Source: Ostreococcus lucimarinus (lineage: Eukaryota). From it: DNA of 64,000 nucleotides. The notes below the pieces were generated by a model, which was given only the letters and a program-made list of their open reading frames with translations, was not told the origin of the DNA and made no database searches. Shown here piece after piece: positions 1 to 44,048 of this stretch. Numbering within the stretch: the stretch's first letter is position 1; every line of letters begins with the position of its first letter. Where the stretch lies: NCBI GenBank assembly GCA_000092065.1, contig CP000597.1. The stretch is one strand, 5' to 3'. The position numbers and the translations under genes were made by a program.

Positions 1-528
1 TCATCCCGCCTGCGATCCGCGCCCTCGCGCGCGTCCTCGTCCTCGTCCTCGCGCGCGCGTCGCGCCTCCGTCGCGCCGTCGTCGCCGCAGAAATCATCTT
101 CATCGACGCGACTCGGCGTCGTCACGCCGCTCTTCGACCCATCGCGCGCGCGCGCGCGTCCCTCGGCGTCGCCCTTCGCCGTCGTCGCGCGCGTCGGCGT
201 CGTCCGGCGCGCGCCGGCGTCGTCGCGCGCCATCGACGTCGGCGGCGCCGCGATGTGACGCGGCCGGTCGCGTCGATCGACGTCGAGGTTCGCGCGGCGC
301 GGTCGAACCTCGCGCTGAGGTTCGATCGCGCGCGCGATCGAACCTCGAGCGACGGTTCGACGGTCGATTCGCGGCGTCGGCGACCGTCGCCGCCGCACCG
401 CGCGACGCGATCGTCGAGCGCGCGCGCCGAGGGCGCCGAACGCGCGCGGCGCGAGCGGCGCGCGTCTCGAGCGGTGCGCGCGACCGCGCGGCGCGCCGGC
501 GAGGCGAGGCGAGGCGGCGATCGACGCG

Positions 529-7127: not shown

Positions 7128-7366
7128 CGTCGGTCGGTCGGCGGTTCGTTATGCCGACACACCGAGGGGGCGATGAGCGCGAGGCGAGACGAGACTGGAT
7201 TCGCATCCAGCGCCGACGCGCGCGTTTTTACCGCTTCGCGCGAGAGCGACGATTTTCGTTGTAACCGCATCGCGCATCGCGTGTCGTGCGCGCGCGTTCG
7301 TTCGTTTGGTTCGTCGCGGTGGTCGGAACATCGTATTGCACGCGTCGACGCGTCGCGACTCGATTG

Positions 7367-8482
7367 CTAAAAGTTCAACCACGCCGTCATGTACTCGCAC
7401 GACGATGGGTTGATCAGCCCGTCCGGGCGACACTCGTTGATCACCGGACACACCCCACACGGGATGTCGGTGTAGGCGTTGGACTCGGGAACCGGCAGCG
7501 CCGCTCGCGTGTAAAACGTGATCGGCTGGAAATCCTCGTCTGCCTTACCCATCCCGTCGTCCTGAGACTCGTCTTTGATTTCATCCACCTTGCCGTCGTA
7601 CACGAGCGTGTTGACTATTTGTAAAACTTCATCCTGTCCGAGATCGATGCGACTGAGCTCGCTCGCGCGAACGAAATCGCTCACTTCTTTCAGCGTCACG
7701 CGCTCGCGCGAGTAGATGAATTTCACGCACTGCTCGCGCAACACGCTGATAAATTCGGCGTCGTACTCCTGCTCGGTGTACCACGCCCCGCCAGTGATCT
7801 CTCGGCTCGGTTCGAGCTCGTACAGCATGTACACCTTTCGATTTTGTTGCGCCACGTGCTTGACGGATTTGATCAACTTTCTCGCCTCGAGCGTCTTGAA
7901 AATCTTCGTAATCTGCGGCACCGGTAGATTCGACCGCTGTTTCAGCTCCTTCGTCCACATCCCCGCGTTCCCGGCGTGCTGAATGATCTGATACACCAGC
8001 ATATCTTCCGTGCTCAAACCCTTAAACTTCGCCGCCTGCGCCTCGCGCACTCGCGCGTACACCAACCCCCCGCCCCGTCCGAACACGTCAATCTTCTTCT
8101 CCCGCAGCAAGGTGTTGATCGCCTCCGCGCGCTCTTCCACCGACATCTCCTGCCCGAGCATCGTCGCCAACTCGTCCTCCGTCACGCCCGTTCGCGCGCC
8201 CTCGCGTCTCGACGCGTTCGACGAGCTCGCGCCGTCGCCCCGTCCCGCGCCCGCGCGTCCTCGCGCGTCGCCATCCTCGTCCCGTTCCCCTCCCTCCGCG
8301 TCCTCGCTCGCGCCGGACCGTCGTCGCTTTCCCGGCGCGTCCGCGCGCGCGCCCTCCGCGCCGCGCGCGTCGTCGCCGTCGCCGTCGCCGTCGCCGCCGT
8401 CCGCCTTTTCGATGTGTTCCAAAACCACCCGCGCGCGGTTCCGCGCCGCCGCCTGCGCCGCCGCCTGCGCCGCGCGCGACAT
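7367..8482 (-). CDS. DNA-directed RNA polymerase III subunit RPC6 (Rpc34/POLR3F)
   Basis: Winged-helix repeats plus a C-terminal Fe-S/cysteine module (DIPCGVCPVINECRPDGLINPSSCEYMTAWL) characteristic of Rpc34. The tool ORF runs to 8629 from a GTG; the first in-frame ATG is at 8482 (MSRAAQAAAQ...). The N-terminus is low-complexity. Confidence 0.6.
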   Translation of the reverse strand: MSRAAQAAAQAAARNRARVVLEHIEKADGGDGDGDGDDARGAEGARADAPGKRRRSGASEDAEGGERDEDGDARGRAGAGRGDGASSSNASRREGARTGVTEDELATMLGQEMSVEERAEAINTLLREKKIDVFGRGGGLVYARVREAQAAKFKGLSTEDMLVYQIIQHAGNAGMWTKELKQRSNLPVPQITKIFKTLEARKLIKSVKHVAQQNRKVYMLYELEPSREITGGAWYTEQEYDAEFISVLREQCVKFIYSRERVTLKEVSDFVRASELSRIDLGQDEVLQIVNTLVYDGKVDEIKDESQDDGMGKADEDFQPITFYTRAALPVPESNAYTDIPCGVCPVINECRPDGLINPSSCEYMTAWLNF

Positions 8483-8736
8483 CGACGTCGCGCGTTCGAT
8501 CGATCGTCGCGCGGCGCGGGCGCTCGAGCGCGGCGCGCGCGTCGCGCGATGGCGACGGCGGCGCGCGCGCGTCGGTCGCCGCCGTTGTAGCGCGGTGTGT
8601 AAATAATCTGGTGGCGTGTGATAACGCACGCATACGACGATGATTTAAGCCCAGTATCGTTCCCAACCATCGTTCGTAGTGCGCGCGCGAAAGCGCCGTG
8701 TCGTCGTCGCGGCGCCCGCGCGCGCGATCGATCGAT

Positions 8737-8797
8737 CGAGGTTCACCGCGCGCGAGCGAAACGCGCGCCGAGTTTCGCTCGCGCGCGGTGAACCTCG
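8737..8797. promoter_or_regulatory. 61-bp perfect hairpin palindrome (26-bp arms, 9-nt loop) in Rpc34/LHC divergent promoter
   Basis: The arm cgaggttcaccgcgcgcgagcgaaac (8737..8762) is exactly complementary to gtttcgctcgcgcgcggtgaacctcg (8772..8797). It is flanked on both sides by gatcgatcgatcg tracts. It lies about 85 nt upstream of the LHC ATG (8881). Confidence 0.8.
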
Positions 8798-8880
8798 ACG
8801 CGAGTTTCGCGCGCGAACGACGCGGTCGATCGATCGCGCGCGGGCGCGCGGCGCGCGGCCTCATTCCCGCACGCACCCCG

Positions 8881-10086
8881 ATGTTCGCGCGAACCTTGAA
8901 CACCGTCACCCTCGCGAGCGCCCCCGCGCGCGCGACGAAGCGCTGCGCGAAGCGCGCGACCGTGGTCGTGCGCGCCGAGGGCGAAACCGAGGCCGAGGCC
9001 GCGCCGGCGCCGGTCAAGGTGCGACGATTCGACGACGCGCGCGCGCGATGCGGGATCGCGTTTCGGACGTTCGGGCGGTGTGACGACGCGCGCGAACGCG
9101 CGGTGGGACGAACGACGGCGCGAAACTGTGGATGGGAAAAGTTTGCGGCGGATCGACGGCGTCGCGAGGGCGCGCGCGCGAGGGCGCGCGCGCGAGGGAG
9201 GGGCGATGGCGATCGGGGCGTTGATACGATCGCGCACCGTATCTCGCGACGGGGTTCAAAGATTTGGGTGATTTGTTGAGTCGTGACTCGCCAATCGTGG
9301 GGGTTGGGCGAGCGCGCGCGAGACGAGACGAGACGCGCGGTGACTGACGACGAATGCGTGTTTTTGTGTGTTTTACAGAAGGCGGCGCGCAAGACGGATG
9401 ACCTCGCGCCGTTGTACGTGCTCGGGAACTCTGACCAGTCGTTGTCTTACCTCGACGGCTCTTTGCCGGGCGACTACGGGTTCGATCCGCTCGGGTTGTC
9501 CGACCCGGAAGGTGCCGGTGGTTTCATCAACCCGCAATGGTTGGCGTACTCTGAAGTGATCCACGGTCGATGGGCAATGCTCGGTGTGGCCGGTATGGTT
9601 GCCCCGGAGGTGCTCGGCGGCCTCGGCATCATCCCGCAAGAAACCGGCTTGGTCTGGTACAAGGCGGGTATGATCCCGGCGCAAGGCACGTACGATTACT
9701 GGGCCAACCCGTTCACGATCTTCTGGATCAACGCCGCGTTGATGAACTTTGCTGAACTTCGCCGCGCGCAAGATTACTGGAACCCGGGCTCCATGGGCAA
9801 GCAAGAACTCATCGGCTGGGAAAAGATGCTCGGGGGCTCCGGCGAACCGGCATACCCGGGTGGTTTCTTCAACATCATGGGCCAAGGCAAGTCCGACATG
9901 GCGAAGATGCGTGTCAAGGAAATCAAGAACGGTCGTCTTGCGATGATGGCGTGCTTCGCGTGCGGCGCGCAAGCCGTGATGACGGGTGAAGGCCCGGTGA
10001 AGAACTTGATTGACCACGTCTCCGATCCGTTCGGCCACAACTTGCTCGTGAACTTCCAAAACATTGGCGGCGTCTCTCCGTTCTAA
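8881..10086 (+). CDS. Light-harvesting chlorophyll a/b-binding protein (LHC/Lhcp), two exons: join(8881..9018,9379..10086)
   Basis: Exon 2 carries the canonical LHC helices ([33 protein letters not shown]). The transit peptide ([35 protein letters not shown]...) lies in a separate upstream ORF in the same frame. An in-frame stop separates them. Donor GTCAAG|GTGCGAC at 9019, branch ACTGACGA at 9343-9350, acceptor TTTTACAG| at 9378. Confidence 0.8.
9019..9378 (+). other. Spliceosomal intron 1 of LHC gene (360 nt, phase 0)
   Basis: GTGCGAC donor, ACTGACGA about 30 nt upstream of a T-rich tract and CAG acceptor. It joins the transit-peptide exon to the mature LHC in frame. Confidence 0.6.
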
Positions 10087-22671: not shown

Positions 22672-25600
22672 ATGCGGAAAAATTACCTGCTGAAGACGAA
22701 GGGCGTGCTGCGGTGCTGCACGCTGTGCGAGATCTTGGTGCCGGTGATTTTCTTGGGGCTCATGTGCCTGCCGAAGGCGTTGGTGCCGGATTCGAGGACG
22801 AACGATGAGCTGTCGAGGCCGTACGCGCTCGCGGGGGGGATCGAGAGCGTGAACCAGAGGACGCCGAGGGGGTTTCGGTTCGTGGTGGCGCCGGCGAGCG
22901 CGGAGACGCTGGAGCTCGGACGGCGAGCGTACGTGCACGCGATGTGCTTGAGCGAGCGGTCGATCGCGAAGGATAGGAGCTATGCGAACGATTTTGAGGA
23001 CGGGAAAAAGAATTTGTTGAATTTGATGGATGATCAGGTGCAGGCGTCGTCGAACGTCGCGACGGGGGTCAAATCGGCGTTCGCCGCGCTGTCGTACGAC
23101 GTCACGGCGATGCCCGCGGCGTGTTCGGATGCGTGCCTGCAGGACTCGTCGTGCGTGACGAGTACGTGGGACGCTATTTTAGACGAAGTCGTCGTGACCA
23201 AGGCGGATGAAGCCGCGGCGATGGCGTACGTCGCCAGTCGTCCCGGGGAAGTTTTCGCGTACGCGCGTTTTGATTCGGGAGGTAACGTCGCGAGCACGCG
23301 CGCGTTCGCGTACACGCTGCGCTTGAATTCGACGAACGTTGCGAACGAGGACAAGGCGGTGGCGGCGTTCATGGAGGACGACTTTACCGGGAGATGGGAC
23401 AGCGCGTACAACACAGATGATTGGGCAAAGTACAAGTCGTTTGCGTATGCGCAAAACGCGTTCGACGCGGCGATCATCGACATGAAGGACGGAGGCAGTG
23501 CGTATAGCGTGACGTTAGACACATCTCTCAAGCCATTTCCTTGGTTGGGGTTCGACTACAACGTCGGTGGCGTCATCGCCGCAGCCTTTTACGGCTTCGT
23601 CGGCTCGCTCGCGTTTCAAACCAACGTCGTCCTCGTCATGAAATCCATCGTCGTTGAGAAGGAATTGCGATTGCGAGAAGGGATGAAGATGATGGGTATG
23701 TCAAACACGATGTTCTGGTGGTCTTGGTTCTTCACGCACTGGCTTTCGGCGATGATTTCCGTCGTCTTGATCACGTTGGTCGGGATTTACCCGTTTTCGT
23801 ACACGAATCAATTCATTCAATTCATCTTTTACACGTTTTGGGTGGCGTCTTTAACGCTTTGGAACTTTTGGATCTCGACATTCTTTTCCAAATCGATCAC
23901 CGCCACCATAGTCGGCTGTTTCGCATACGTCCTCACCATGGTTCCTTCCATCGCGGTCCGCATCACGCAGCCCGAGGGCAGCGGCGCTTGGATCTTAGCG
24001 TGCATATTTCCATCCGGGGCGATGAACATGTGGGGCGCGGCGCTGGCTATTCTGGAGGTGAATAAGAAGGGTATCACGATGGAGACATTCAACGAAGACG
24101 TAACGCTCAAGGGGAACGTCACGTGCGCTGGTATCTTAGGCATGGTGATTTTCGATTGCTTATTTTACGCGTTTCTCACCTTTTACTTCGACGCCGTGTG
24201 GAAAACCGAATACGGCACGCGCCAGCCTCCTTGGTTTCTATTCACGCGTAAGTACTGGTGCGGTGACGCGTCGAAGGTCATCGATGATGAAACGCTTGGA
24301 ATGCACGAGCAAGAGTCTGGGGACGCCGTCGAGCCGCTCACGAAGCAACAGATGAAGTCAGCCAGCGTCGTCGTTCGCGGTTTGACGAAGAAGTTTGGCG
24401 ACGAAGTCACTGCGGTGGATAATTTGAGTATGACCTTTGTTCCTGGCCAAGTGAGTGGATTACTTGGTCACAATGGTGCTGGTAAAACGACGACGATTAG
24501 TGTTCTCACGGGTATGATTGAACGGACCTCTGGTCGAGCGACTATTGACGGGTACGACACCAAAACCCAGATGCGAGAAATTCGCGCCGGTCTCGGTATC
24601 TGCCCTCAATTCGACGTCCTTTGGCCGACACTCACGGTGCGCGAACATTTACAATTATACGCCGCATTTGCGGGTATGCAAAAAGAGGATGTAGAACGAG
24701 AACTCAAGCAAGTCGTGGAAGAGGTTGCGCTGACGGAGAAGATTGACGCGAACTCGAAGGATCTATCGGGTGGGATGAAGCGTAAGCTCTCGCTCGCTAT
24801 TGCGTTTATCGGCAGTCCGTCCGTAGTGTTTCTCGACGAACCAACGTCTGGGATGGACCCTTACTCGCGACGATTCACGTGGGACGTCATTCGCAAACGA
24901 GCCGCCAACTGCACAGTCTTGCTCACGACGCACTTTTTGGACGAGGCTGATTTGCTGTGCGATCGAGTCGCCATCATGAGCGCTGGTCATCTTGCATGCA
25001 TCGGTTCGCCACTATTCCTCAAGTCTAAATTCGGCACTGGTTATCTGCTCACGTTTGCGCGTCATAGTCGCGCGTCATCGACGCAAATCGCGTCGATGAC
25101 GCAGCACAACTCGAACGCCATGCTGCGAGTGATTCAACACTTCGTACCCAAAGCCGTTGTTCACAGCGACGTCGGCGCCGAGCTATCGTTTTCTTTACCA
25201 TTCGAGTCTACCGGCGACTTTTCTGCGTTATTCAAGGCTCTCGATGAGCAGATCGGGAATTTAGGGTACGCAAGTTACGGCATCTCGTGCACCACGCTCG
25301 AGGAGGTATTTCTATCTCTCGCACATGGGGTGAAGGCGGCGTCCACGGCGCAATCGAAAGGCAAGGTTGTGGACTTAGACGCACCCGTGGAAGAAGCCGA
25401 CGAATGTGAAGACCTCGATGCAAAATTGGTCGCTGGCAACCGCAAGGACATTCGCCAAACCTACGCGAAGGGTGGTGCCTTACTCAGAATCCAACTCAAA
25501 CGCTTGCTCTGGAAGCGTTGGCTCAATTGGCGTCGCAGCATGCGGTCGATATTCATGCAACTTCTCGTACCTTGTTTGCTCGTCGTGCTCGCGCTTTATT

Positions 25601-28113
25601 TGACCACGTTGAGTTTTGAACCTGGGAGCACGATTTCGGCGAAAGAAATCAGTCGAAAGCTACTCAATAACAAGAAGACCCTCGTGACGTACTCCCCTTC
25701 GGCGACTGAGGCGGTCGCCGTCACGACGAACTTGATGACAGACACTTACGCGTTACGCTCTCAGTATCAACCCGAGATTTCGTGTATGTGCAACTGCTTA
25801 GCGAAAGATCAAACGATCACGATGTCTGCCATGACGTGTTGCGCGTATAACAGAACCATTGAGTCAACGTGTCGAGTAGCGGCATTGGCACGTCTTGCGG
25901 GCGGGACGTATTGCGTCAAGTCTCCAAAAGGCTACGATGTACAAAGAGACATCGTTTCTATGGGGCTATCGTGCTCGTCCATGATAGATGACAGTATCGA
26001 TAGTTACTTACTAGACGTCCAAGAGCCATCGGTGCCTTGTGACATGCAACCGACGGGATCGCCGTGCGACGTCTTGTACGTTGACGAGTACGACGGCACG
26101 CGCTATAGTCACACGCTGTACGGACATCAAACAGCCTTACACGGTATGCCGACCGTCATCAACAACGTGAATAGTGCTATTTTGCGCAAGCGCACGTCCG
26201 ATTCTAGTGCGAGCATCACGACTACGATTCACTGGTATCCGAGCGCGGTGAATACACTGAAGGAAGGAGACATCGAAGAGCCGGACAACTCTGGAACTAC
26301 GTTCATCGTTTCCATGTTCGTCGTCATGGGGCTCGCTGTTCTCAGTGCTGGGATTTCAATCTTTCCAGTGTACGAACGATGCAATAACTCCAAACACTTA
26401 CAGCTCGTGAGTGGAATCGATAAACGAATTTATTGGCTGGCGCACTACGTCGCAGACGCCATACAGCTCGTTATTCCGTTCGCCGTCATCGTCGTCATTT
26501 TTGCCGGTTTCAATGCGTCTTACTTCCAAGGTCAACTCGGGGCGATCACTGTTTTGTTGGGTTTTTTCATGTTGACCTCTATTCCACACGCGCATTATCA
26601 AGGATTTTGGTACACTAGCGAATACTACACCTTTGTTGGGCAAATCGGAACAAACACCACCGTTGGCGTGATCACCACCATCGCCGGTATCGTCACCGAT
26701 GCCCTGAAAGACTTGAATAAAGAGACGTTGTTGGTGAGCAAAATCTTCAATTACACGTTTCCGCTCATCATTCCGCACTTTAGTTTCGGGAAAGGTCTAT
26801 ACGACATCGCACAAAATGGTTTGGACAAGACGCGGAAAATTTTCCGCGAGGATTGCATGTGCCTCGTCCCCGTCGTACCAAAGGGTTCTTTCAACGTCAT
26901 CGCCGACGATTTGGGCTATTTGATCGGAACATTTTTCATGTGGAGCGCTTTGTTGTTTTACAAAGAGTATAAAGAGATTTTCGCAAGTTGGATACTGATG
27001 AAACGTGGAAACTCGCAAGAGGTATCGCCGAGCGTCGACGAAGATGAAGACGTGCGAGCCGAGCGCGAACGCGTGCTCTCAGGAGACATCGACGGTGATG
27101 GCGTCATCATGGACCGCTTATCCAAGACGTACAAAGGCTTGTCAGCGAGTTCTACAAAGCTCGCCGTTCGAAATCTCAGCGTGGGTCTACATCGCGATCA
27201 ATGCTTTGGTTTGCTCGGCATCAACGGCGCGGGAAAGACGACGACATTCAAGATGCTCACGGGCGAGTTCCCACCATCTGCGGGTGACGCGATCATTCAA
27301 GATCGAGACGGTGCGTCTCACAGTGTGCGTACTGATCTTAACGACGCGCGACGATTGATGGGATATTGTCCTCAGTTCAACGGCTTGCAACCAAACTTTA
27401 CCGCACGCGAGCACATTGAATTCTACGCCGCCATTCGCGGAATGCCGACGGAGATGATTCCGCGCGTGACGGAAGATCTGCTGCAGCGTATGGGTTTGAC
27501 TTTGTATGCCGATAGACAAGCTGGAACATACAGTGGAGGCAACAAGCGTAAGCTTTCTGTCGCGTTGTCGCTCGTCGGCGAACCAGAAGTCGTCTTCTTG
27601 GATGAACCATCAACTGGTATGGATCCCGAAGCGAGACGGTTCATGTGGGACGTGATCTCGTCCATGATGGTTGGACGCACGATTGTTCTCACATCGCACT
27701 CTATGGAGGAGTGTGAGGCACTCTGTAATCGCATCGGTATCATGGTGAGTGGCGAGTTCAAGTGTCTTGGCTCCTTGCAGCACTTGAAGTCGCGCTTTAG
27801 TGAAGGATACTCCATCGATCTGCGCTTTTCCGACGGAAAAGGAAACGCCGTTATGGAAGCGCTACGAGCCAAACACGGAGACATTGGAGCGGAGATAGTA
27901 GAAACACACGCCACAGAAATTAAACTTCGCGTGATGAATCCCGAAATGAAACTTTGGCGTATTTTTGACGCCGTCGAAGCTTTGAAGCAGTCGGACGACG
28001 ACGGCGCAAGAATTGACGACTACTCCGTGTCGCAGACGACTTTAGAGCAGGTCTTCATCCGATTTGCAAAGGAGCAAACCGAGGAGATACACGCGGCACC
28101 GGGATTACAGTAG
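22672..28113 (+). CDS. Full-size ABC transporter, ABCA subfamily (two TMD-NBD halves)
   Basis: 1813-aa intronless ORF with ATG at 22672. N-terminal ABCA-type TM1 and large extracytoplasmic loop; two NBDs with Walker A (GHNGAGKTT / GINGAGKTT), signature LSGGMKRKLS / YSGGNKRKLS and Walker B (VVFLDEP). Confidence 0.9.
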   Translation: MRKNYLLKTKGVLRCCTLCEILVPVIFLGLMCLPKALVPDSRTNDELSRPYALAGGIESVNQRTPRGFRFVVAPASAETLELGRRAYVHAMCLSERSIAKDRSYANDFEDGKKNLLNLMDDQVQASSNVATGVKSAFAALSYDVTAMPAACSDACLQDSSCVTSTWDAILDEVVVTKADEAAAMAYVASRPGEVFAYARFDSGGNVASTRAFAYTLRLNSTNVANEDKAVAAFMEDDFTGRWDSAYNTDDWAKYKSFAYAQNAFDAAIIDMKDGGSAYSVTLDTSLKPFPWLGFDYNVGGVIAAAFYGFVGSLAFQTNVVLVMKSIVVEKELRLREGMKMMGMSNTMFWWSWFFTHWLSAMISVVLITLVGIYPFSYTNQFIQFIFYTFWVASLTLWNFWISTFFSKSITATIVGCFAYVLTMVPSIAVRITQPEGSGAWILACIFPSGAMNMWGAALAILEVNKKGITMETFNEDVTLKGNVTCAGILGMVIFDCLFYAFLTFYFDAVWKTEYGTRQPPWFLFTRKYWCGDASKVIDDETLGMHEQESGDAVEPLTKQQMKSASVVVRGLTKKFGDEVTAVDNLSMTFVPGQVSGLLGHNGAGKTTTISVLTGMIERTSGRATIDGYDTKTQMREIRAGLGICPQFDVLWPTLTVREHLQLYAAFAGMQKEDVERELKQVVEEVALTEKIDANSKDLSGGMKRKLSLAIAFIGSPSVVFLDEPTSGMDPYSRRFTWDVIRKRAANCTVLLTTHFLDEADLLCDRVAIMSAGHLACIGSPLFLKSKFGTGYLLTFARHSRASSTQIASMTQHNSNAMLRVIQHFVPKAVVHSDVGAELSFSLPFESTGDFSALFKALDEQIGNLGYASYGISCTTLEEVFLSLAHGVKAASTAQSKGKVVDLDAPVEEADECEDLDAKLVAGNRKDIRQTYAKGGALLRIQLKRLLWKRWLNWRRSMRSIFMQLLVPCLLVVLALYLTTLSFEPGSTISAKEISRKLLNNKKTLVTYSPSATEAVAVTTNLMTDTYALRSQYQPEISCMCNCLAKDQTITMSAMTCCAYNRTIESTCRVAALARLAGGTYCVKSPKGYDVQRDIVSMGLSCSSMIDDSIDSYLLDVQEPSVPCDMQPTGSPCDVLYVDEYDGTRYSHTLYGHQTALHGMPTVINNVNSAILRKRTSDSSASITTTIHWYPSAVNTLKEGDIEEPDNSGTTFIVSMFVVMGLAVLSAGISIFPVYERCNNSKHLQLVSGIDKRIYWLAHYVADAIQLVIPFAVIVVIFAGFNASYFQGQLGAITVLLGFFMLTSIPHAHYQGFWYTSEYYTFVGQIGTNTTVGVITTIAGIVTDALKDLNKETLLVSKIFNYTFPLIIPHFSFGKGLYDIAQNGLDKTRKIFREDCMCLVPVVPKGSFNVIADDLGYLIGTFFMWSALLFYKEYKEIFASWILMKRGNSQEVSPSVDEDEDVRAERERVLSGDIDGDGVIMDRLSKTYKGLSASSTKLAVRNLSVGLHRDQCFGLLGINGAGKTTTFKMLTGEFPPSAGDAIIQDRDGASHSVRTDLNDARRLMGYCPQFNGLQPNFTAREHIEFYAAIRGMPTEMIPRVTEDLLQRMGLTLYADRQAGTYSGGNKRKLSVALSLVGEPEVVFLDEPSTGMDPEARRFMWDVISSMMVGRTIVLTSHSMEECEALCNRIGIMVSGEFKCLGSLQHLKSRFSEGYSIDLRFSDGKGNAVMEALRAKHGDIGAEIVETHATEIKLRVMNPEMKLWRIFDAVEALKQSDDDGARIDDYSVSQTTLEQVFIRFAKEQTEEIHAAPGLQ

Positions 28114-42788: not shown

Positions 42789-44048
42789 CTATCGAGCGGC
42801 GGTGAGCGGTGGTTGATGACGTCGGCTTCGCGCGCCGACGGCGCGGTTGGTCTTGACGCTCGCGACGGCGGTGAAATCTCCGAGCGCCACGGCGTCGTCC
42901 ACGGAGATGAGACGGTGAGAGGGCGACGTGTGGTCGTCTTTTACGAACGGTTTGCTCTGGCGCGCGGCTTTGAGTCGCTCTTTACGTTGCCTGTAATGTT
43001 CGACGCCGACCACGGCGTTGGCTTGGACGAGCGCGTCGTCGTATTGATCAGCCAGAGCCTCGAACGGCATCTCGTGCGCCGGCGTTACGTCACGCTTCGT
43101 TCCAATTCTCGCGCGCGTCGATCGCCACGCGCGCGAGAATTCAACCGGCGTGAGCTGTAAGACGACGTCGGCGAGTTTGTTGCCCGGCGCGCCGCCTCGA
43201 GCCTTGGCGAGCGCATCCAGCTCGAGCCTCCGCTCGTCGTTCGAACACAAATCCATCAACACGAATCTCACGTCGGCGAACGGCTTGCCCTTCTCGGCGC
43301 ACAGCGCGTCTTTATCGATCATCACCTTCTTCGCGTCGTCCCGGTGGTACTCCAGCGCCGGCTTCAATCTCTCCAAAACCAAGTGAAACGGAGTCTCCTT
43401 GACGTCGCACCACCCCGGCGCGCGCCACGTCGGCGAACACAACAGCGACCGCTGCACTCGCACGCGTCGCGTCGCGTCGTCCCTGAACAGCGGACACATC
43501 GCGCCTTCGTGCGCGACGCTCGGTTCGCACGCGCGTCGTCCCAAATTCGCCCACTTCCCATCGTCGCCTCCGCGCTTGGCGTACAGCGAACACGCGAATC
43601 TCTCGCGCGTCATCTTTCGCTTCCCTCGCGCGTTCGCGTTCCCCAATCCGTCGACTTTATCTCGCAACCGCGGTTCGCCGTCCCGCTCGCGCCGCTCGCG
43701 CGCCTCGCGTTCAATCTCTCGCTCGTACTGCTCGCTCCGCAGCGCGCGCAGCGCGATCTCCACCGGCCCGCTGTCCGACGCGTCGACGACGCGCGTCGTC
43801 GCGCCCTCGATTCGCCCTCGCGCCGCGCCCGCGCCTTTCGCGCGCGTCCCGACGCCGCGACGCATTTCGTCCCGCGCGCGCGTTCGCCGCGCCTCGCGCC
43901 GCGCGAGCGCGTCGAGCGCCGCCACCGCGCCGTCGTCGTCGTCGTCGTCGTCCTCGCGCGCGCGCGCGTCCTCGGCGTCGCCCGCGGCGTCGTCGTCGCG
44001 CGATTTCCACGGCAGGCACGGCATCAACCGACGCGCGACGCGCGACAT
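42789..44048 (-). CDS. Hypothetical conserved protein (unknown function)
   Basis: 419-aa ORF with ATG at 44048. A non-repetitive, balanced-composition C-terminal half (FHLVLERLKPALEYH ... TPVEFSRAWR ... EHYRQRKERLKAARQ) suggests a real protein. I could not assign a family. Acidic/Arg-rich N-terminus. Confidence 0.35.
   Translation of the reverse strand: MSRVARRLMPCLPWKSRDDDAAGDAEDARAREDDDDDDDGAVAALDALARREARRTRARDEMRRGVGTRAKGAGAARGRIEGATTRVVDASDSGPVEIALRALRSEQYEREIEREARERRERDGEPRLRDKVDGLGNANARGKRKMTRERFACSLYAKRGGDDGKWANLGRRACEPSVAHEGAMCPLFRDDATRRVRVQRSLLCSPTWRAPGWCDVKETPFHLVLERLKPALEYHRDDAKKVMIDKDALCAEKGKPFADVRFVLMDLCSNDERRLELDALAKARGGAPGNKLADVVLQLTPVEFSRAWRSTRARIGTKRDVTPAHEMPFEALADQYDDALVQANAVVGVEHYRQRKERLKAARQSKPFVKDDHTSPSHRLISVDDAVALGDFTAVASVKTNRAVGARSRRHQPPLTAAR

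What the first reader, a model, noticed from the sequence alone, without database searches (positions are those of the whole stretch)
8726..8845. Large perfect hairpin palindrome flanked by GATCGATCGATCG tracts in the bidirectional promoter of Rpc34 and a light-harvesting gene
A 26-bp arm with its exact reverse complement and a 9-nt loop (8737..8797) sits about 85 nt upstream of the LHC ATG. It is bracketed by gatcgatcgatcg (8726..8738) and gtcgatcgatcg (8830..8842), and is followed by a second near-palindrome (cgagtttcgcgcgcgaacg). A perfect inverted repeat of this length is very unlikely by chance. It could extrude as a cruciform, act as a dimeric transcription-factor site (LHC genes are strongly light- and circadian-regulated), or encode a short hairpin RNA.
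Basis: seen in the sequence. Interest (0 to 1): 0.55.

Follow-up and report, generated by a model that had tools for sequence, protein, structure and literature searches.

The report
Polymorphic promoter palindrome in Ostreococcus
The long hairpin-forming palindrome upstream of a photosystem I antenna gene is real, but it is a single-copy, species-specific and variable stretch of DNA that looks like a by-product of copying errors at inverted repeats, not a conserved regulatory switch.

Summary
The window is Ostreococcus lucimarinus CCE9901. The palindrome is real: arms 8737-8762 and 8772-8797 with a 9-nt spacer, or a 27-bp perfect stem at 8736-8798. No shuffle of the CG-rich spacer gives a stem over 16 bp. 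It lies between Rpc34 (minus strand, ATG 8482) and Lhca3 (ATG 8881), nested in an 87% outer inverted repeat (8708-8738 / 8823-8853).

It is single copy. Nothing similar occurs elsewhere in the window, and all five JGI metagenome hits are this locus. No Rfam family reaches threshold. Five other Ostreococcus species with the same gene order lack it.

Across 19 DNA haplotypes, six variable sites fall inside the 61-bp palindrome and none in the 112 bp flanking it. The perfect form (AG at 8755-8756) is a minority allele. Most wild copies carry GT (two mismatches), one carries CG, and a common haplotype carries TT>CG at 8742-8743. Hairpin stability ranges from -30.6 to -42.3 kcal/mol.

AG is nested in a haplogroup that otherwise carries GT, and it exactly complements the other arm. 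That is the signature of quasipalindrome template-switch correction.

Best reading: a lineage-specific quasipalindrome made and remodelled by template switching in a CpG/GATC-rich promoter, with at most a structural effect. A transcription-factor site or hairpin RNA is not supported.

The parts
7367..8482 (-). Rpc34 (RNA polymerase III subunit RPC6) gene, single exon, ATG at 8482
   Evidence: Pfam PF05158 on the identical product in metagenome contigs. The exact protein is in the collection, named RPC6.
8708..8738 (.). Outer left arm CGCGGCGCCCGCGCGCGCGATCGATCGATCG, including the (GATC)3G tract 8726-8738
   Evidence: I2: 31 nt, 87% complementary to 8823-8853. Invariant in 19 haplotypes.
8736..8762 (.). 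Inner left arm TCGAGGTTCACCGCGCGCGAGCGAAAC. It carries 5 of the 6 polymorphic sites: 8740, 8742-8743 and 8755-8756.
8755..8756 (.). Hot-spot dinucleotide. AG (window, L028) gives the perfect palindrome. GT is the majority allele and completes a 12-nt self-palindrome ACCGCGCGCGGT at 8745-8756. CG occurs in L018. These bases pair with 8779 and 8778.
8763..8771 (.). Spacer or loop gcgcgccga. Its outer bases can pair further, leaving a 3-nt loop.
8772..8798 (.). Inner right arm GTTTCGCTCGCGCGCGGTGAACCTCGA. It has one polymorphic site, 8779 T/C.
8799..8822 (.). Partial third copy of the arm core. It contains the near-palindrome CGAGTTTCGCGCGCGAACG (8801-8819) with a TTTCGCGC word, and can pair with the left arm as an alternative.
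   Evidence: D3, D4, I5. Invariant in the population. TTTCGCGC is not enriched in the window.
8823..8853 (.). Outer right arm CGGTCGATCGATCGCGCGCGGGCGCGCGGCG, with the GATC tract at 8825-8836. A GATCG+(CG)n module sits at a similar distance from the Lhca3 ATG in other Ostreococcus species.
   Evidence: I2. One search places GATCGAC/TCGATCG at -34 to -65 in five species.
8860..8880 (+). Initiator-like CTCATTCC followed by a C/A-rich leader. This is the inferred Lhca3 start site region, implying a 5'UTR of about 18 nt.
   Evidence: Inference from sequence, from similar CA-starting leaders in relatives, and from short 5' ends of related transcripts. No start site was mapped.
8881..10086 (+). Lhca3 gene: exon 1 at 8881-9018, intron at 9019-9378, exon 2 at 9379-10086
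   Evidence: The spliced 281-aa product equals XP_001422134.1 exactly. The best solved relative is chain 3 of 7yca (E = 2.7e-152); the next-best chains are named Lhca3.

Best explanation
The element is a lineage-specific quasipalindrome. It is a local inverted duplication inside the CpG- and GATC-rich, probably nucleosome-free, divergent promoter between Rpc34 and Lhca3 of Ostreococcus lucimarinus. It was created, and is still being remodelled, by short-range template switching between its arms during replication or repair.

The reference strain carries a 'corrected' allele. At 8755-8756 the widespread GT has been replaced by AG, copied from the complement of the other arm, and this turns a 19+6-bp interrupted stem into a 27-bp perfect one.

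The exact sequence is not under detectable purifying selection and is not a conserved cis-regulatory site. Any effect on Lhca3 or Rpc34 expression would be structural and allele-dependent: cruciform or Z-DNA formation absorbing the negative supercoils produced by divergent transcription, or nucleosome exclusion.

Shown: the palindrome exists, is non-random and is single copy. It is absent from sister species and polymorphic within the species. The AG allele is nested among GT haplotypes. Inferred: the template-switch mechanism, the position upstream of the start site, and the lack of a sequence-specific function.
For: (1) Non-random: a 27-bp perfect stem against a maximum of 16 in 2000 shuffles.

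(2) Single copy: no other match to the 26-mer with up to 3 mismatches in 64 kb. A metagenome scan for the 14-nt outer stems with any 8-38-nt interior found 5 contigs, all at this locus.

(3) Not conserved between species. Gene order (FNR, dynein-attachment, Lhca3, Rpc34, RbcX-like, kinase) is kept in L011, L013/14, L015 and L016, with Rpc34 66-77% identical. Their Lhca3 upstream regions lack the inner palindrome. They share only a GATCG+(CG)n module and a CA-rich leader.

(4) Variable within the species. In 19 DNA haplotypes, 6 variable sites lie in the 61-bp palindrome, 0 in 8708-8736 and 0 in 8798-8880. My estimate of the chance of this, from (61/173)^6, is about 0.002.
- Two of the changes are adjacent double substitutions.
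- At 8755-8756 there are three alleles.

(5) The perfect allele is rare. DNA haplotypes: GT in 16 of 19, AG in 2, CG in 1. Counts from a called ORF that reads through the palindrome:
- plain GT: about 31 contigs
- the haplotype with an alanine change at 8743 (TT>CG in DNA; still GT at 8755-8756): about 28 contigs
- GT with 8779C: 4 contigs
- AG: 4 contigs

(6) Polarity. AG occurs only in the 8659G haplogroup (window, L028), whose other members (L004, L027) keep GT. GT is found on all backgrounds. The derived AG is the exact complement of 8778-8779.

(7) Hairpin stability of natural haplotypes spans -30.6 to -42.3 kcal/mol, so stability is not held constant.

(8) The mechanism is established elsewhere. 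Quasipalindromes are mutational hot spots that become more perfect by template switching (PMC7202029). Expansion of inverted repeats by template switching is frequent at yeast promoters (PMC13100816).
Against: - No outgroup sequence aligns to the palindrome, so the polarity GT>AG rests on haplotype nesting in a 400-bp region where recombination is possible. AG sits on two different backgrounds at 8652 and 8655.
- The GT allele is itself 'templated', because it completes a 12-nt self-palindrome ACCGCGCGCGGT. The switch could run either way.
- The TT>CG change has no nearby template, and it and 8740C lower complementarity. Not all changes fit correction.
- A palindrome that persists in every wild haplotype, with at least an 11-bp perfect core, could still be maintained by weak selection.
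- The half-site word CGAGGTTC is over-represented in the window (12 against 4 expected). Eight of the 12 copies lie in promoter-type spacers, including two more GAGGTTC...GAACCTC palindromes at 285-346. This hints at a real motif.
- No expression, start-site or chromatin data for this species were available.
Confidence: 0.55

Rival explanations
1. The palindrome is a functional cis-regulatory element of the Lhca3 (and/or Rpc34) promoter. It would be either a binding site for a dimeric factor recognising GAGGTTCACC half sites, or a structure-specific (cruciform) site, acquired recently in the O. lucimarinus lineage.
For: - It lies 83-144 nt upstream of the Lhca3 ATG, inside an otherwise invariant 170-bp promoter block.
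- It is kept, in some form, in every wild haplotype seen.
- CGAGGTTC is enriched (12 against 3.95 expected, 0 of 100 shuffles reach 12), mostly in promoter-type spacers.
- GAGGTTC...GAACCTC palindromes recur at 285-311 and 317-346 in another divergent spacer.
- Inverted-repeat expansion at yeast promoters can change expression (PMC13100816).
Against: - It is absent from the orthologous promoters of five other Ostreococcus species.
- It is the most polymorphic part of its block, and common alleles break the outer stem (TT>CG, about 28 contigs).
- The spacing between GAGGTTC half sites differs in the three palindromes (13, 16 and 45 nt), which does not fit one dimeric factor.
- No second copy lies upstream of any other gene in the metagenome scan.
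- The E2F-like word TTTCGCGC is at chance level (19 against 25 expected).
Confidence: 0.25
2. The hairpin is transcribed. It would be either a stable stem-loop in a long Lhca3 5'UTR that controls translation, or a small hairpin RNA precursor.
For: - As single-stranded nucleic acid it folds very stably.
- There is no ATG between 8641 and 8880.
- One metatranscriptome contig of a related species (L032) extends 197 nt upstream of the ATG.
- A TATA-like TAAATAAT lies at about 8601.
Against: - No Rfam family reaches its gathering score; only generic hairpin-like sub-threshold hits appear.
- Three spliced Lhca3 transcript contigs of a related species (two of them polyadenylated) start only 2-7 nt before the ATG.
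- In O. tauri the start-site-associated 6mA peak lies at the ATG itself (bioRxiv 10.64898/2026.07.10.737489).
- From established knowledge of scanning, a stem this stable in a leader, 83 nt from the AUG, would be expected to block translation of an abundant antenna protein.
- Natural alleles vary by 12 kcal/mol, with no compensatory pattern.
Confidence: 0.07
3. The element is the remnant of a mobile element: a MITE or a solo terminal inverted repeat pair inserted in the promoter.
For: It has nested inverted repeats, with 31-nt outer arms at 87% and 27-nt inner arms, spanning about 146 bp. That size is typical of MITEs.
Against: - It is single copy in the window and in the metagenome scan.
- The outer arms consist largely of (CG)n and (GATC)n, which are self-complementary microsatellites common in these promoters.
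- No target-site duplication is evident at 8707/8854.
- No empty site was seen in any of 19 haplotypes.
Confidence: 0.03

Closest known systems
Quasipalindrome-associated template-switch mutation hot spots (Ripley model; E. coli thyA and lacZ reporters, yeast CYC1; PMC7202029)
   Same: It is an imperfect inverted repeat in which a clustered, multi-nucleotide change makes the arms perfectly complementary. The site is much more variable than its flanks.
   Different: This case is seen as standing polymorphism in wild marine populations of a picoalga, not as a selected reporter mutation. The alternative allele (GT) completes a competing 12-nt self-palindrome, so the site may toggle between two states. 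Some variants lower complementarity.
Inverted-repeat expansion at yeast promoters by template switching (GRE2 case; PMC13100816)
   Same: A lineage-specific inverted repeat in a promoter is lengthened by homogenisation of its arms. Related strains differ in how perfect the repeat is.
   Different: No overlap with a known transcription-factor site and no expression effect has been shown here. The arm length (27 bp perfect, within an imperfect palindrome of about 146 bp) and the CpG/GATC microsatellite context are specific to this genome.
Cruciform-forming inverted repeats in promoters under negative supercoiling (twin-domain model of divergent transcription; from my own knowledge, not tested)
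   Same: It is a long perfect inverted repeat with a short spacer between two divergently transcribed genes, flanked by alternating CG runs that could form Z-DNA.
   Different: Extrusion in vivo was not tested. Most natural alleles have interrupted stems that would extrude less readily.
Palindromic dimeric transcription-factor sites (for example overlapping E2F sites TTTCGCGCGAAA)
   Same: The region has palindromic symmetry. The word TTTCGCGC is present at 8805-8812, and near-matches lie in both arms.
   Different: The arms are far longer than any dimer site. The word is at chance frequency in this genome. There is no conservation in orthologous promoters.

Membership tests
Quasipalindrome template-switch hot spot | An imperfect inverted repeat capable of intrastrand pairing | tested here: met
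   The majority haplotype has a 19-bp stem, a 2-nt mismatch and a further 6-bp stem. It folds at -35.7 kcal/mol, z = -7.5.
Quasipalindrome template-switch hot spot | Mutations that increase complementarity and are templated by the opposite arm, often changing several bases at once | tested here: met
   GT>AG at 8755-8756 is the exact complement of 8778-8779. AG is nested in the 8659G haplogroup, which otherwise carries GT. 8779 T>C creates a G:C pair with 8755G.
Quasipalindrome template-switch hot spot | A higher local mutation or polymorphism density than in the flanks | tested here: met
   6 variable sites in 61 bp against 0 in the 112 flanking bp across 19 haplotypes.
Quasipalindrome template-switch hot spot | All clustered changes explained by a nearby template | tested here: inconclusive
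   TT>CG at 8742-8743 has no template of 7 nt or more within about 400 nt and lowers pairing. GT is itself templated by a 12-nt self-palindrome.
MITE / TIR transposon remnant | Multiple dispersed copies | tested here: not met
   There is no second copy in 64 kb. All 5 metagenome hits are the same locus.
MITE / TIR transposon remnant | A target-site duplication and polymorphic empty sites | tested here: not met
   No direct repeat flanks 8708-8853. All 19 haplotypes carry the element.
Conserved cis-regulatory palindrome (dimeric transcription-factor site) | Conservation in orthologous promoters | tested here: not met
   The inner palindrome is absent upstream of Lhca3 in L011, L013/14, L015, L016 and L032.
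Conserved cis-regulatory palindrome (dimeric transcription-factor site) | Purifying selection within the species | tested here: not met
   The palindrome is the variable island of an otherwise invariant block.
Conserved cis-regulatory palindrome (dimeric transcription-factor site) | Recurrence of the half site with fixed spacing at other promoters | tested here: inconclusive
   CGAGGTTC is enriched and three GAGGTTC...GAACCTC palindromes exist, but with spacers of 13, 16 and 45 nt. Only 64 kb could be examined.
Known structured RNA / miRNA precursor | A match to a curated RNA family above its gathering score | tested here: not met
   The best hit is mir-610 at 29.3 bits against a gathering score of 90.
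Known structured RNA / miRNA precursor | Transcription of the hairpin | not testable with these tools
   No O. lucimarinus transcript data were available. Transcripts of a related species start 2-7 nt before the ATG.
Cruciform-forming inverted repeat | Long perfect arms with a short spacer | tested here: met
   The reference allele has 27-bp arms and a 9-nt spacer. Most wild alleles are interrupted.
Cruciform-forming inverted repeat | Extrusion in vivo under negative supercoiling | not testable with these tools
   This needs chemical or enzymatic probing of chromatin or plasmids.

The most novel reading that the evidence does not exclude
GAGGTTC-type hairpin palindromes would be a so far undescribed class of structure-dependent promoter elements in O. 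lucimarinus. They would sit in divergent promoters, here at 8736-8798 and at 285-346. The AG/GT/CG alleles would be a natural 'dial' of cruciform stability that tunes Lhca3 or Rpc34 expression between wild lineages, with the site toggling between two competing palindromes by template switching.
Probability: 0.1. Interest if true: 0.65.

Novelty: new member of a known kind. Interest (0 to 1): 0.3.

Why it matters
If the reading is right, this is a clean natural example of quasipalindrome template switching, visible directly in ocean metagenomes of one of the smallest free-living eukaryotes. It shows how long perfect hairpins can appear in promoters without selection. It also warns that the 'perfect' palindrome in a reference genome can be a minority allele. 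For Ostreococcus promoter biology, the data point away from the palindrome. They point towards the invariant 83 bp next to the ATG and the conserved GATCG+(CG)n module as the parts worth testing. It does not open a long-standing question.

Tried and rejected
- **Dispersed repeat or MITE:** rejected. The element is single copy in the window and in the metagenome scan. A viral-contig scan with the 19-mer gave only 5 single, non-palindromic matches, taken without inspection to be chance.
- **Known RNA family:** rejected.
- **E2F site:** TTTCGCGC and near-matches occur in all three arm copies, and the CG allele even makes a perfect GCGCGAAA. However, the word is at or below chance in this genome (19 against 25.3 expected), so the idea was dropped.
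- **tRNA B-box resemblance of GGTTCGA at 317:** considered from memory next to a Pol III subunit gene. Only 5-8 bases match, so it was not pursued.
- **Micromonas as source:** my first guess from composition was wrong. Exact protein matches identify O. lucimarinus CCE9901.
- **Purifying selection on the palindrome:** the low overall diversity of the locus made this look possible at first. Adding haplotypes showed the opposite.
- **Population data for the palindromes at 285-346:** only two contigs were found. The one that reaches the 285-346 spacer (L037) is identical to the window there, so this was uninformative.
- **Transcript 5' ends for O. lucimarinus itself:** none were in the collections. 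Only a related species gave transcripts.
- **Literature on loss of RNAi in Ostreococcus:** nothing usable turned up, so that argument is not used.

Full report
**1. What is in the sequence.** Positions 8737-8762 (CGAGGTTCACCGCGCGCGAGCGAAAC) and 8772-8797 are exact reverse complements separated by gcgcgccga. With one more base on each side the perfect stem is 27 bp, at 8736-8798. With one mismatch it reads as 30-nt arms and a 3-nt loop (I1).

The right one is at 8825-8836, about 5 nt to the left of the stated coordinates. The near-palindrome cgagtttcgcgcgcgaacg is at 8801-8819.

The two GATC tracts are not just brackets. They belong to a real outer inverted repeat, 8708-8738 / 8823-8853, 31 nt at 87% (I2). 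The 24 nt between the inner and outer right arms (8799-8822) are a partial third copy of the arm core CGAGTTTCGC.CGCGCG, which can also pair with the left arm (D3, D4, I5). The whole 8708-8853 stretch is therefore one large imperfect palindrome with an insertion in its right half. As single-stranded DNA, 8700-8860 folds at -93.3 kcal/mol, z = -8.5.

**2. Is it chance?** No.
- The longest perfect stem (loop up to 14 nt) in 2000 dinucleotide-preserving shuffles of the CG-rich 399-bp spacer was 16.
- In 30 shuffles of the whole window the longest was also 16.
- The next longest real stems in the window are 15 bp.

**3. Organism and genes.** Three window proteins are in the public collection as exact sequences. 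The RbcX-like 174-aa protein is XP_001422237.1 of Ostreococcus lucimarinus CCE9901, on a 366,173-bp record. The spliced 281-aa LHC product (exons 8881-9018 and 9379-10086) is XP_001422134.1 of the same strain.
- The LHC gene's closest solved relative is chain 3 of PDB entry 7yca, E = 2.7e-152. From memory, that entry is the O. tauri PSI-LHCI supercomplex. All further hits are Lhca3, so the gene is Lhca3.
- The minus-strand neighbour, 7367-8482, is Rpc34/RPC6 (PF05158).
- The ATG-to-ATG spacer is 8483-8880 (398 bp).
- The palindrome ends 83 nt before the Lhca3 ATG and starts 254 nt from the Rpc34 ATG.

**4. Is it a repeat family or a known RNA?** No.
- No second match to the 26-mer with up to three mismatches occurs in the window.
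- A 19-mer scan of viral contigs gave five single, non-palindromic matches, which I took, without inspecting them, to be chance.
- Rfam gave only sub-threshold generic hairpin hits; the best was 29 bits against a gathering score of 90.

**5. Other species.** Rpc34 relatives at 66-77% identity lie in the same gene order: FNR, dynein-attachment protein, Lhca3 (minus), Rpc34 (plus), RbcX-like, kinase. Their Lhca3 upstream regions contain no counterpart of the inner palindrome.

What the species do share is a GATCG+(CG)n module 34-65 nt before the ATG, followed by a C/A-rich leader that begins with CA. So the right-hand GATC/CG tract belongs to a conserved core-promoter layout, while the palindrome is specific to the O. 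lucimarinus lineage.

**6. Wild populations.** The Rpc34 protein of the window is listed in 112 blocks of the metagenome collection. I collected 19 DNA haplotypes of the spacer and aligned them.

| Region | Length | Variable sites |
|---|---|---|
| 8539-8707 | 169 bp | 14 |
| Outer left arm 8708-8736 | 29 bp | 0 |
| Palindrome 8737-8797 | 61 bp | 6 (8740; 8742+8743; 8755+8756; 8779) |
| 8798-8880 | 83 bp | 0 |

The palindrome is thus a variable island inside an invariant block. If six variable sites fell at random among the 173 positions of the block, all six would land in the palindrome with probability about 0.002. This is my own calculation, (61/173)^6.

Base i pairs with base 17534-i. The alleles are:
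- **8755-8756:** GT in 16 haplotypes, giving G.T and T.C mismatches. AG in the window and L028, giving the perfect palindrome. CG in L018.
- **8779 T>C (L008):** creates a G:C pair with 8755G.
- **8742-8743 TT>CG (L029-L031):** breaks two pairs.
- **8740 G>C (L007):** breaks one pair.

A gene caller's ORF that happens to read through the palindrome gives larger counts at the protein level:
- plain GT: about 31 contigs
- the 8743 variant: about 28 contigs
- GT with 8779C: 4 contigs
- AG: 4 contigs, two of them with further changes

Predicted DNA hairpin energies of the natural alleles run from -30.6 to -42.3 kcal/mol.

**7. Direction of change.** AG is found only in haplotypes with G at 8659 (window, L028). 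The other 8659G haplotypes (L004, L027) carry GT, and GT occurs on every background. AG is therefore most simply derived.

It is an adjacent double substitution that is the exact complement of 8778-8779. Given that both bases change, that outcome has a one-in-nine chance. This is the textbook outcome of quasipalindrome correction, in which the nascent strand copies the other arm (PMC7202029). Arm homogenisation and expansion of inverted repeats by the same process are frequent at yeast promoters and can alter expression (PMC13100816).

Four caveats apply:
- GT completes a 12-nt self-palindrome ACCGCGCGCGGT at 8745-8756, so both states are 'templated' and the site may toggle.
- AG sits on two backgrounds at 8652 and 8655, which means either recombination or recurrence.
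- TT>CG has no nearby template.
- No outgroup aligns.

**8. Is it transcribed?** This is unknown for O. lucimarinus.
- In a related Ostreococcus species, three spliced Lhca3 metatranscriptome contigs (two of them polyadenylated) begin 2, 5 and 7 nt before the ATG. One contig extends 197 nt upstream, and one is chimeric.
- In O. tauri the start-site-associated 6mA peak lies at the ATG, and 5mC is depleted there (also PMC12695648).
- In the window an initiator-like CTCATTCC lies at 8860-8867.

I therefore infer a start site near 8863, which puts the palindrome at about -65 to -127. That makes it promoter DNA, not mRNA. This is inference.

**9. Motif ideas.**
- The E2F-like word TTTCGCGC occurs at 8805-8812, with near-matches in both arms. 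It is not enriched in this genome (19 observed against 25.3 expected).
- CGAGGTTC is enriched (12 against 3.95 expected), and eight of the twelve copies lie in promoter-type spacers on my rough gene map.
- Two more GAGGTTC...GAACCTC palindromes lie at 285-311 and 317-346, in another divergent spacer.
- The spacers between half sites are 13, 16 and 45 nt. This argues against a single dimeric factor but leaves a possible motif or a shared origin. Only 64 kb could be examined.

**10. Verdict.** The best explanation, at confidence 0.55, is a lineage-specific quasipalindrome in a CpG/GATC-rich divergent promoter. It is generated and continually edited by template switching. The reference strain carries a rare 'perfected' allele, and no sequence-specific function is needed to explain it. 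Any effect would be structural and allele-dependent.

| Reading | Confidence |
|---|---|
| Template-switch quasipalindrome (best) | 0.55 |
| Recently acquired functional promoter element | 0.25 |
| Transcribed hairpin | 0.07 |
| Transposon remnant | 0.03 |

It is a new member of a known kind. Interest is modest at 0.3, mainly as a natural population-level example of quasipalindrome dynamics.

Noticed in passing
window 285-346: Two adjacent palindromes with the same outer word as the finding lie in another divergent spacer. The first is GAGGTTCGCGCGGCGCGGTCGAACCTC (285-311). The second is a perfect 30-bp palindrome, GAGGTTCGATCGCGCGCGCGATCGAACCTC (317-346). The spacer separates a minus-strand gene with ATG near 233 from a PF03407 nucleotide-diphospho-sugar transferase gene with ATG at 529. 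The only wild contig that reached this spacer is identical to the window.
   Followed up: partly
window 7128-7366 (L001:4117-4675): The spacer between Rpc34 and the RbcX-like gene is 239 nt in the window but 204, 251, 383, 559 or 563 nt in wild haplotypes that share the identical Rpc34 protein. The window lacks about 317 nt present in the commonest haplotype. The pattern looks like several independent nested deletions, not a tandem repeat.
   Followed up: partly
window 9163-9198 (Lhca3 intron): There are 2.6 copies of a 14-nt unit, CGCGAGGGCGCGCG. One unit is missing in haplotype L003. A C/T polymorphism at 9025 creates an in-frame stop for the spurious ORF that reads through the palindrome.
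   Followed up: no
window 8825-8857; L011, L013, L015, L016 upstream of Lhca3: A GATCG+(CG)n module sits 34-65 nt upstream of the Lhca3 ATG in five Ostreococcus species, followed by a CA-starting C/A-rich leader. GATCGATCG occurs at 9 places in the window, 5 of them in promoter-type spacers. Published work reports 6mA near start sites in Ostreococcus, so these ApT-containing tracts may be methylation targets. This was not tested.
   Followed up: partly
window 8745-8756 in the GT haplotypes (e.g. L001:2727-2738): The majority GT allele creates a 12-nt perfect self-palindrome, ACCGCGCGCGGT, inside the left arm. This competes with the large palindrome completed by the AG allele.
   Followed up: yes
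L032-L036: These are spliced metatranscriptome contigs of Lhca3 from a different, lower-GC Ostreococcus species. Two carry poly(A) tails. Three start 2-7 nt before the ATG. L033 is chimeric at its 5' end, and L032 and L035 read past the poly(A) site.
   Followed up: partly
window 43085-43160: A 34-nt inverted repeat at 74%, with a 15-bp perfect core AATTCTCGCGCGCGT and an 8-nt loop (43104-43141), lies inside or next to the minus-strand ORF 42789-44048.
   Followed up: no
window 24000-28000: GC content drops to 0.51-0.53, against 0.60-0.70 elsewhere, within a single 1813-aa ORF (22672-28113) that also has unusually low GC3 (0.65).
   Followed up: no
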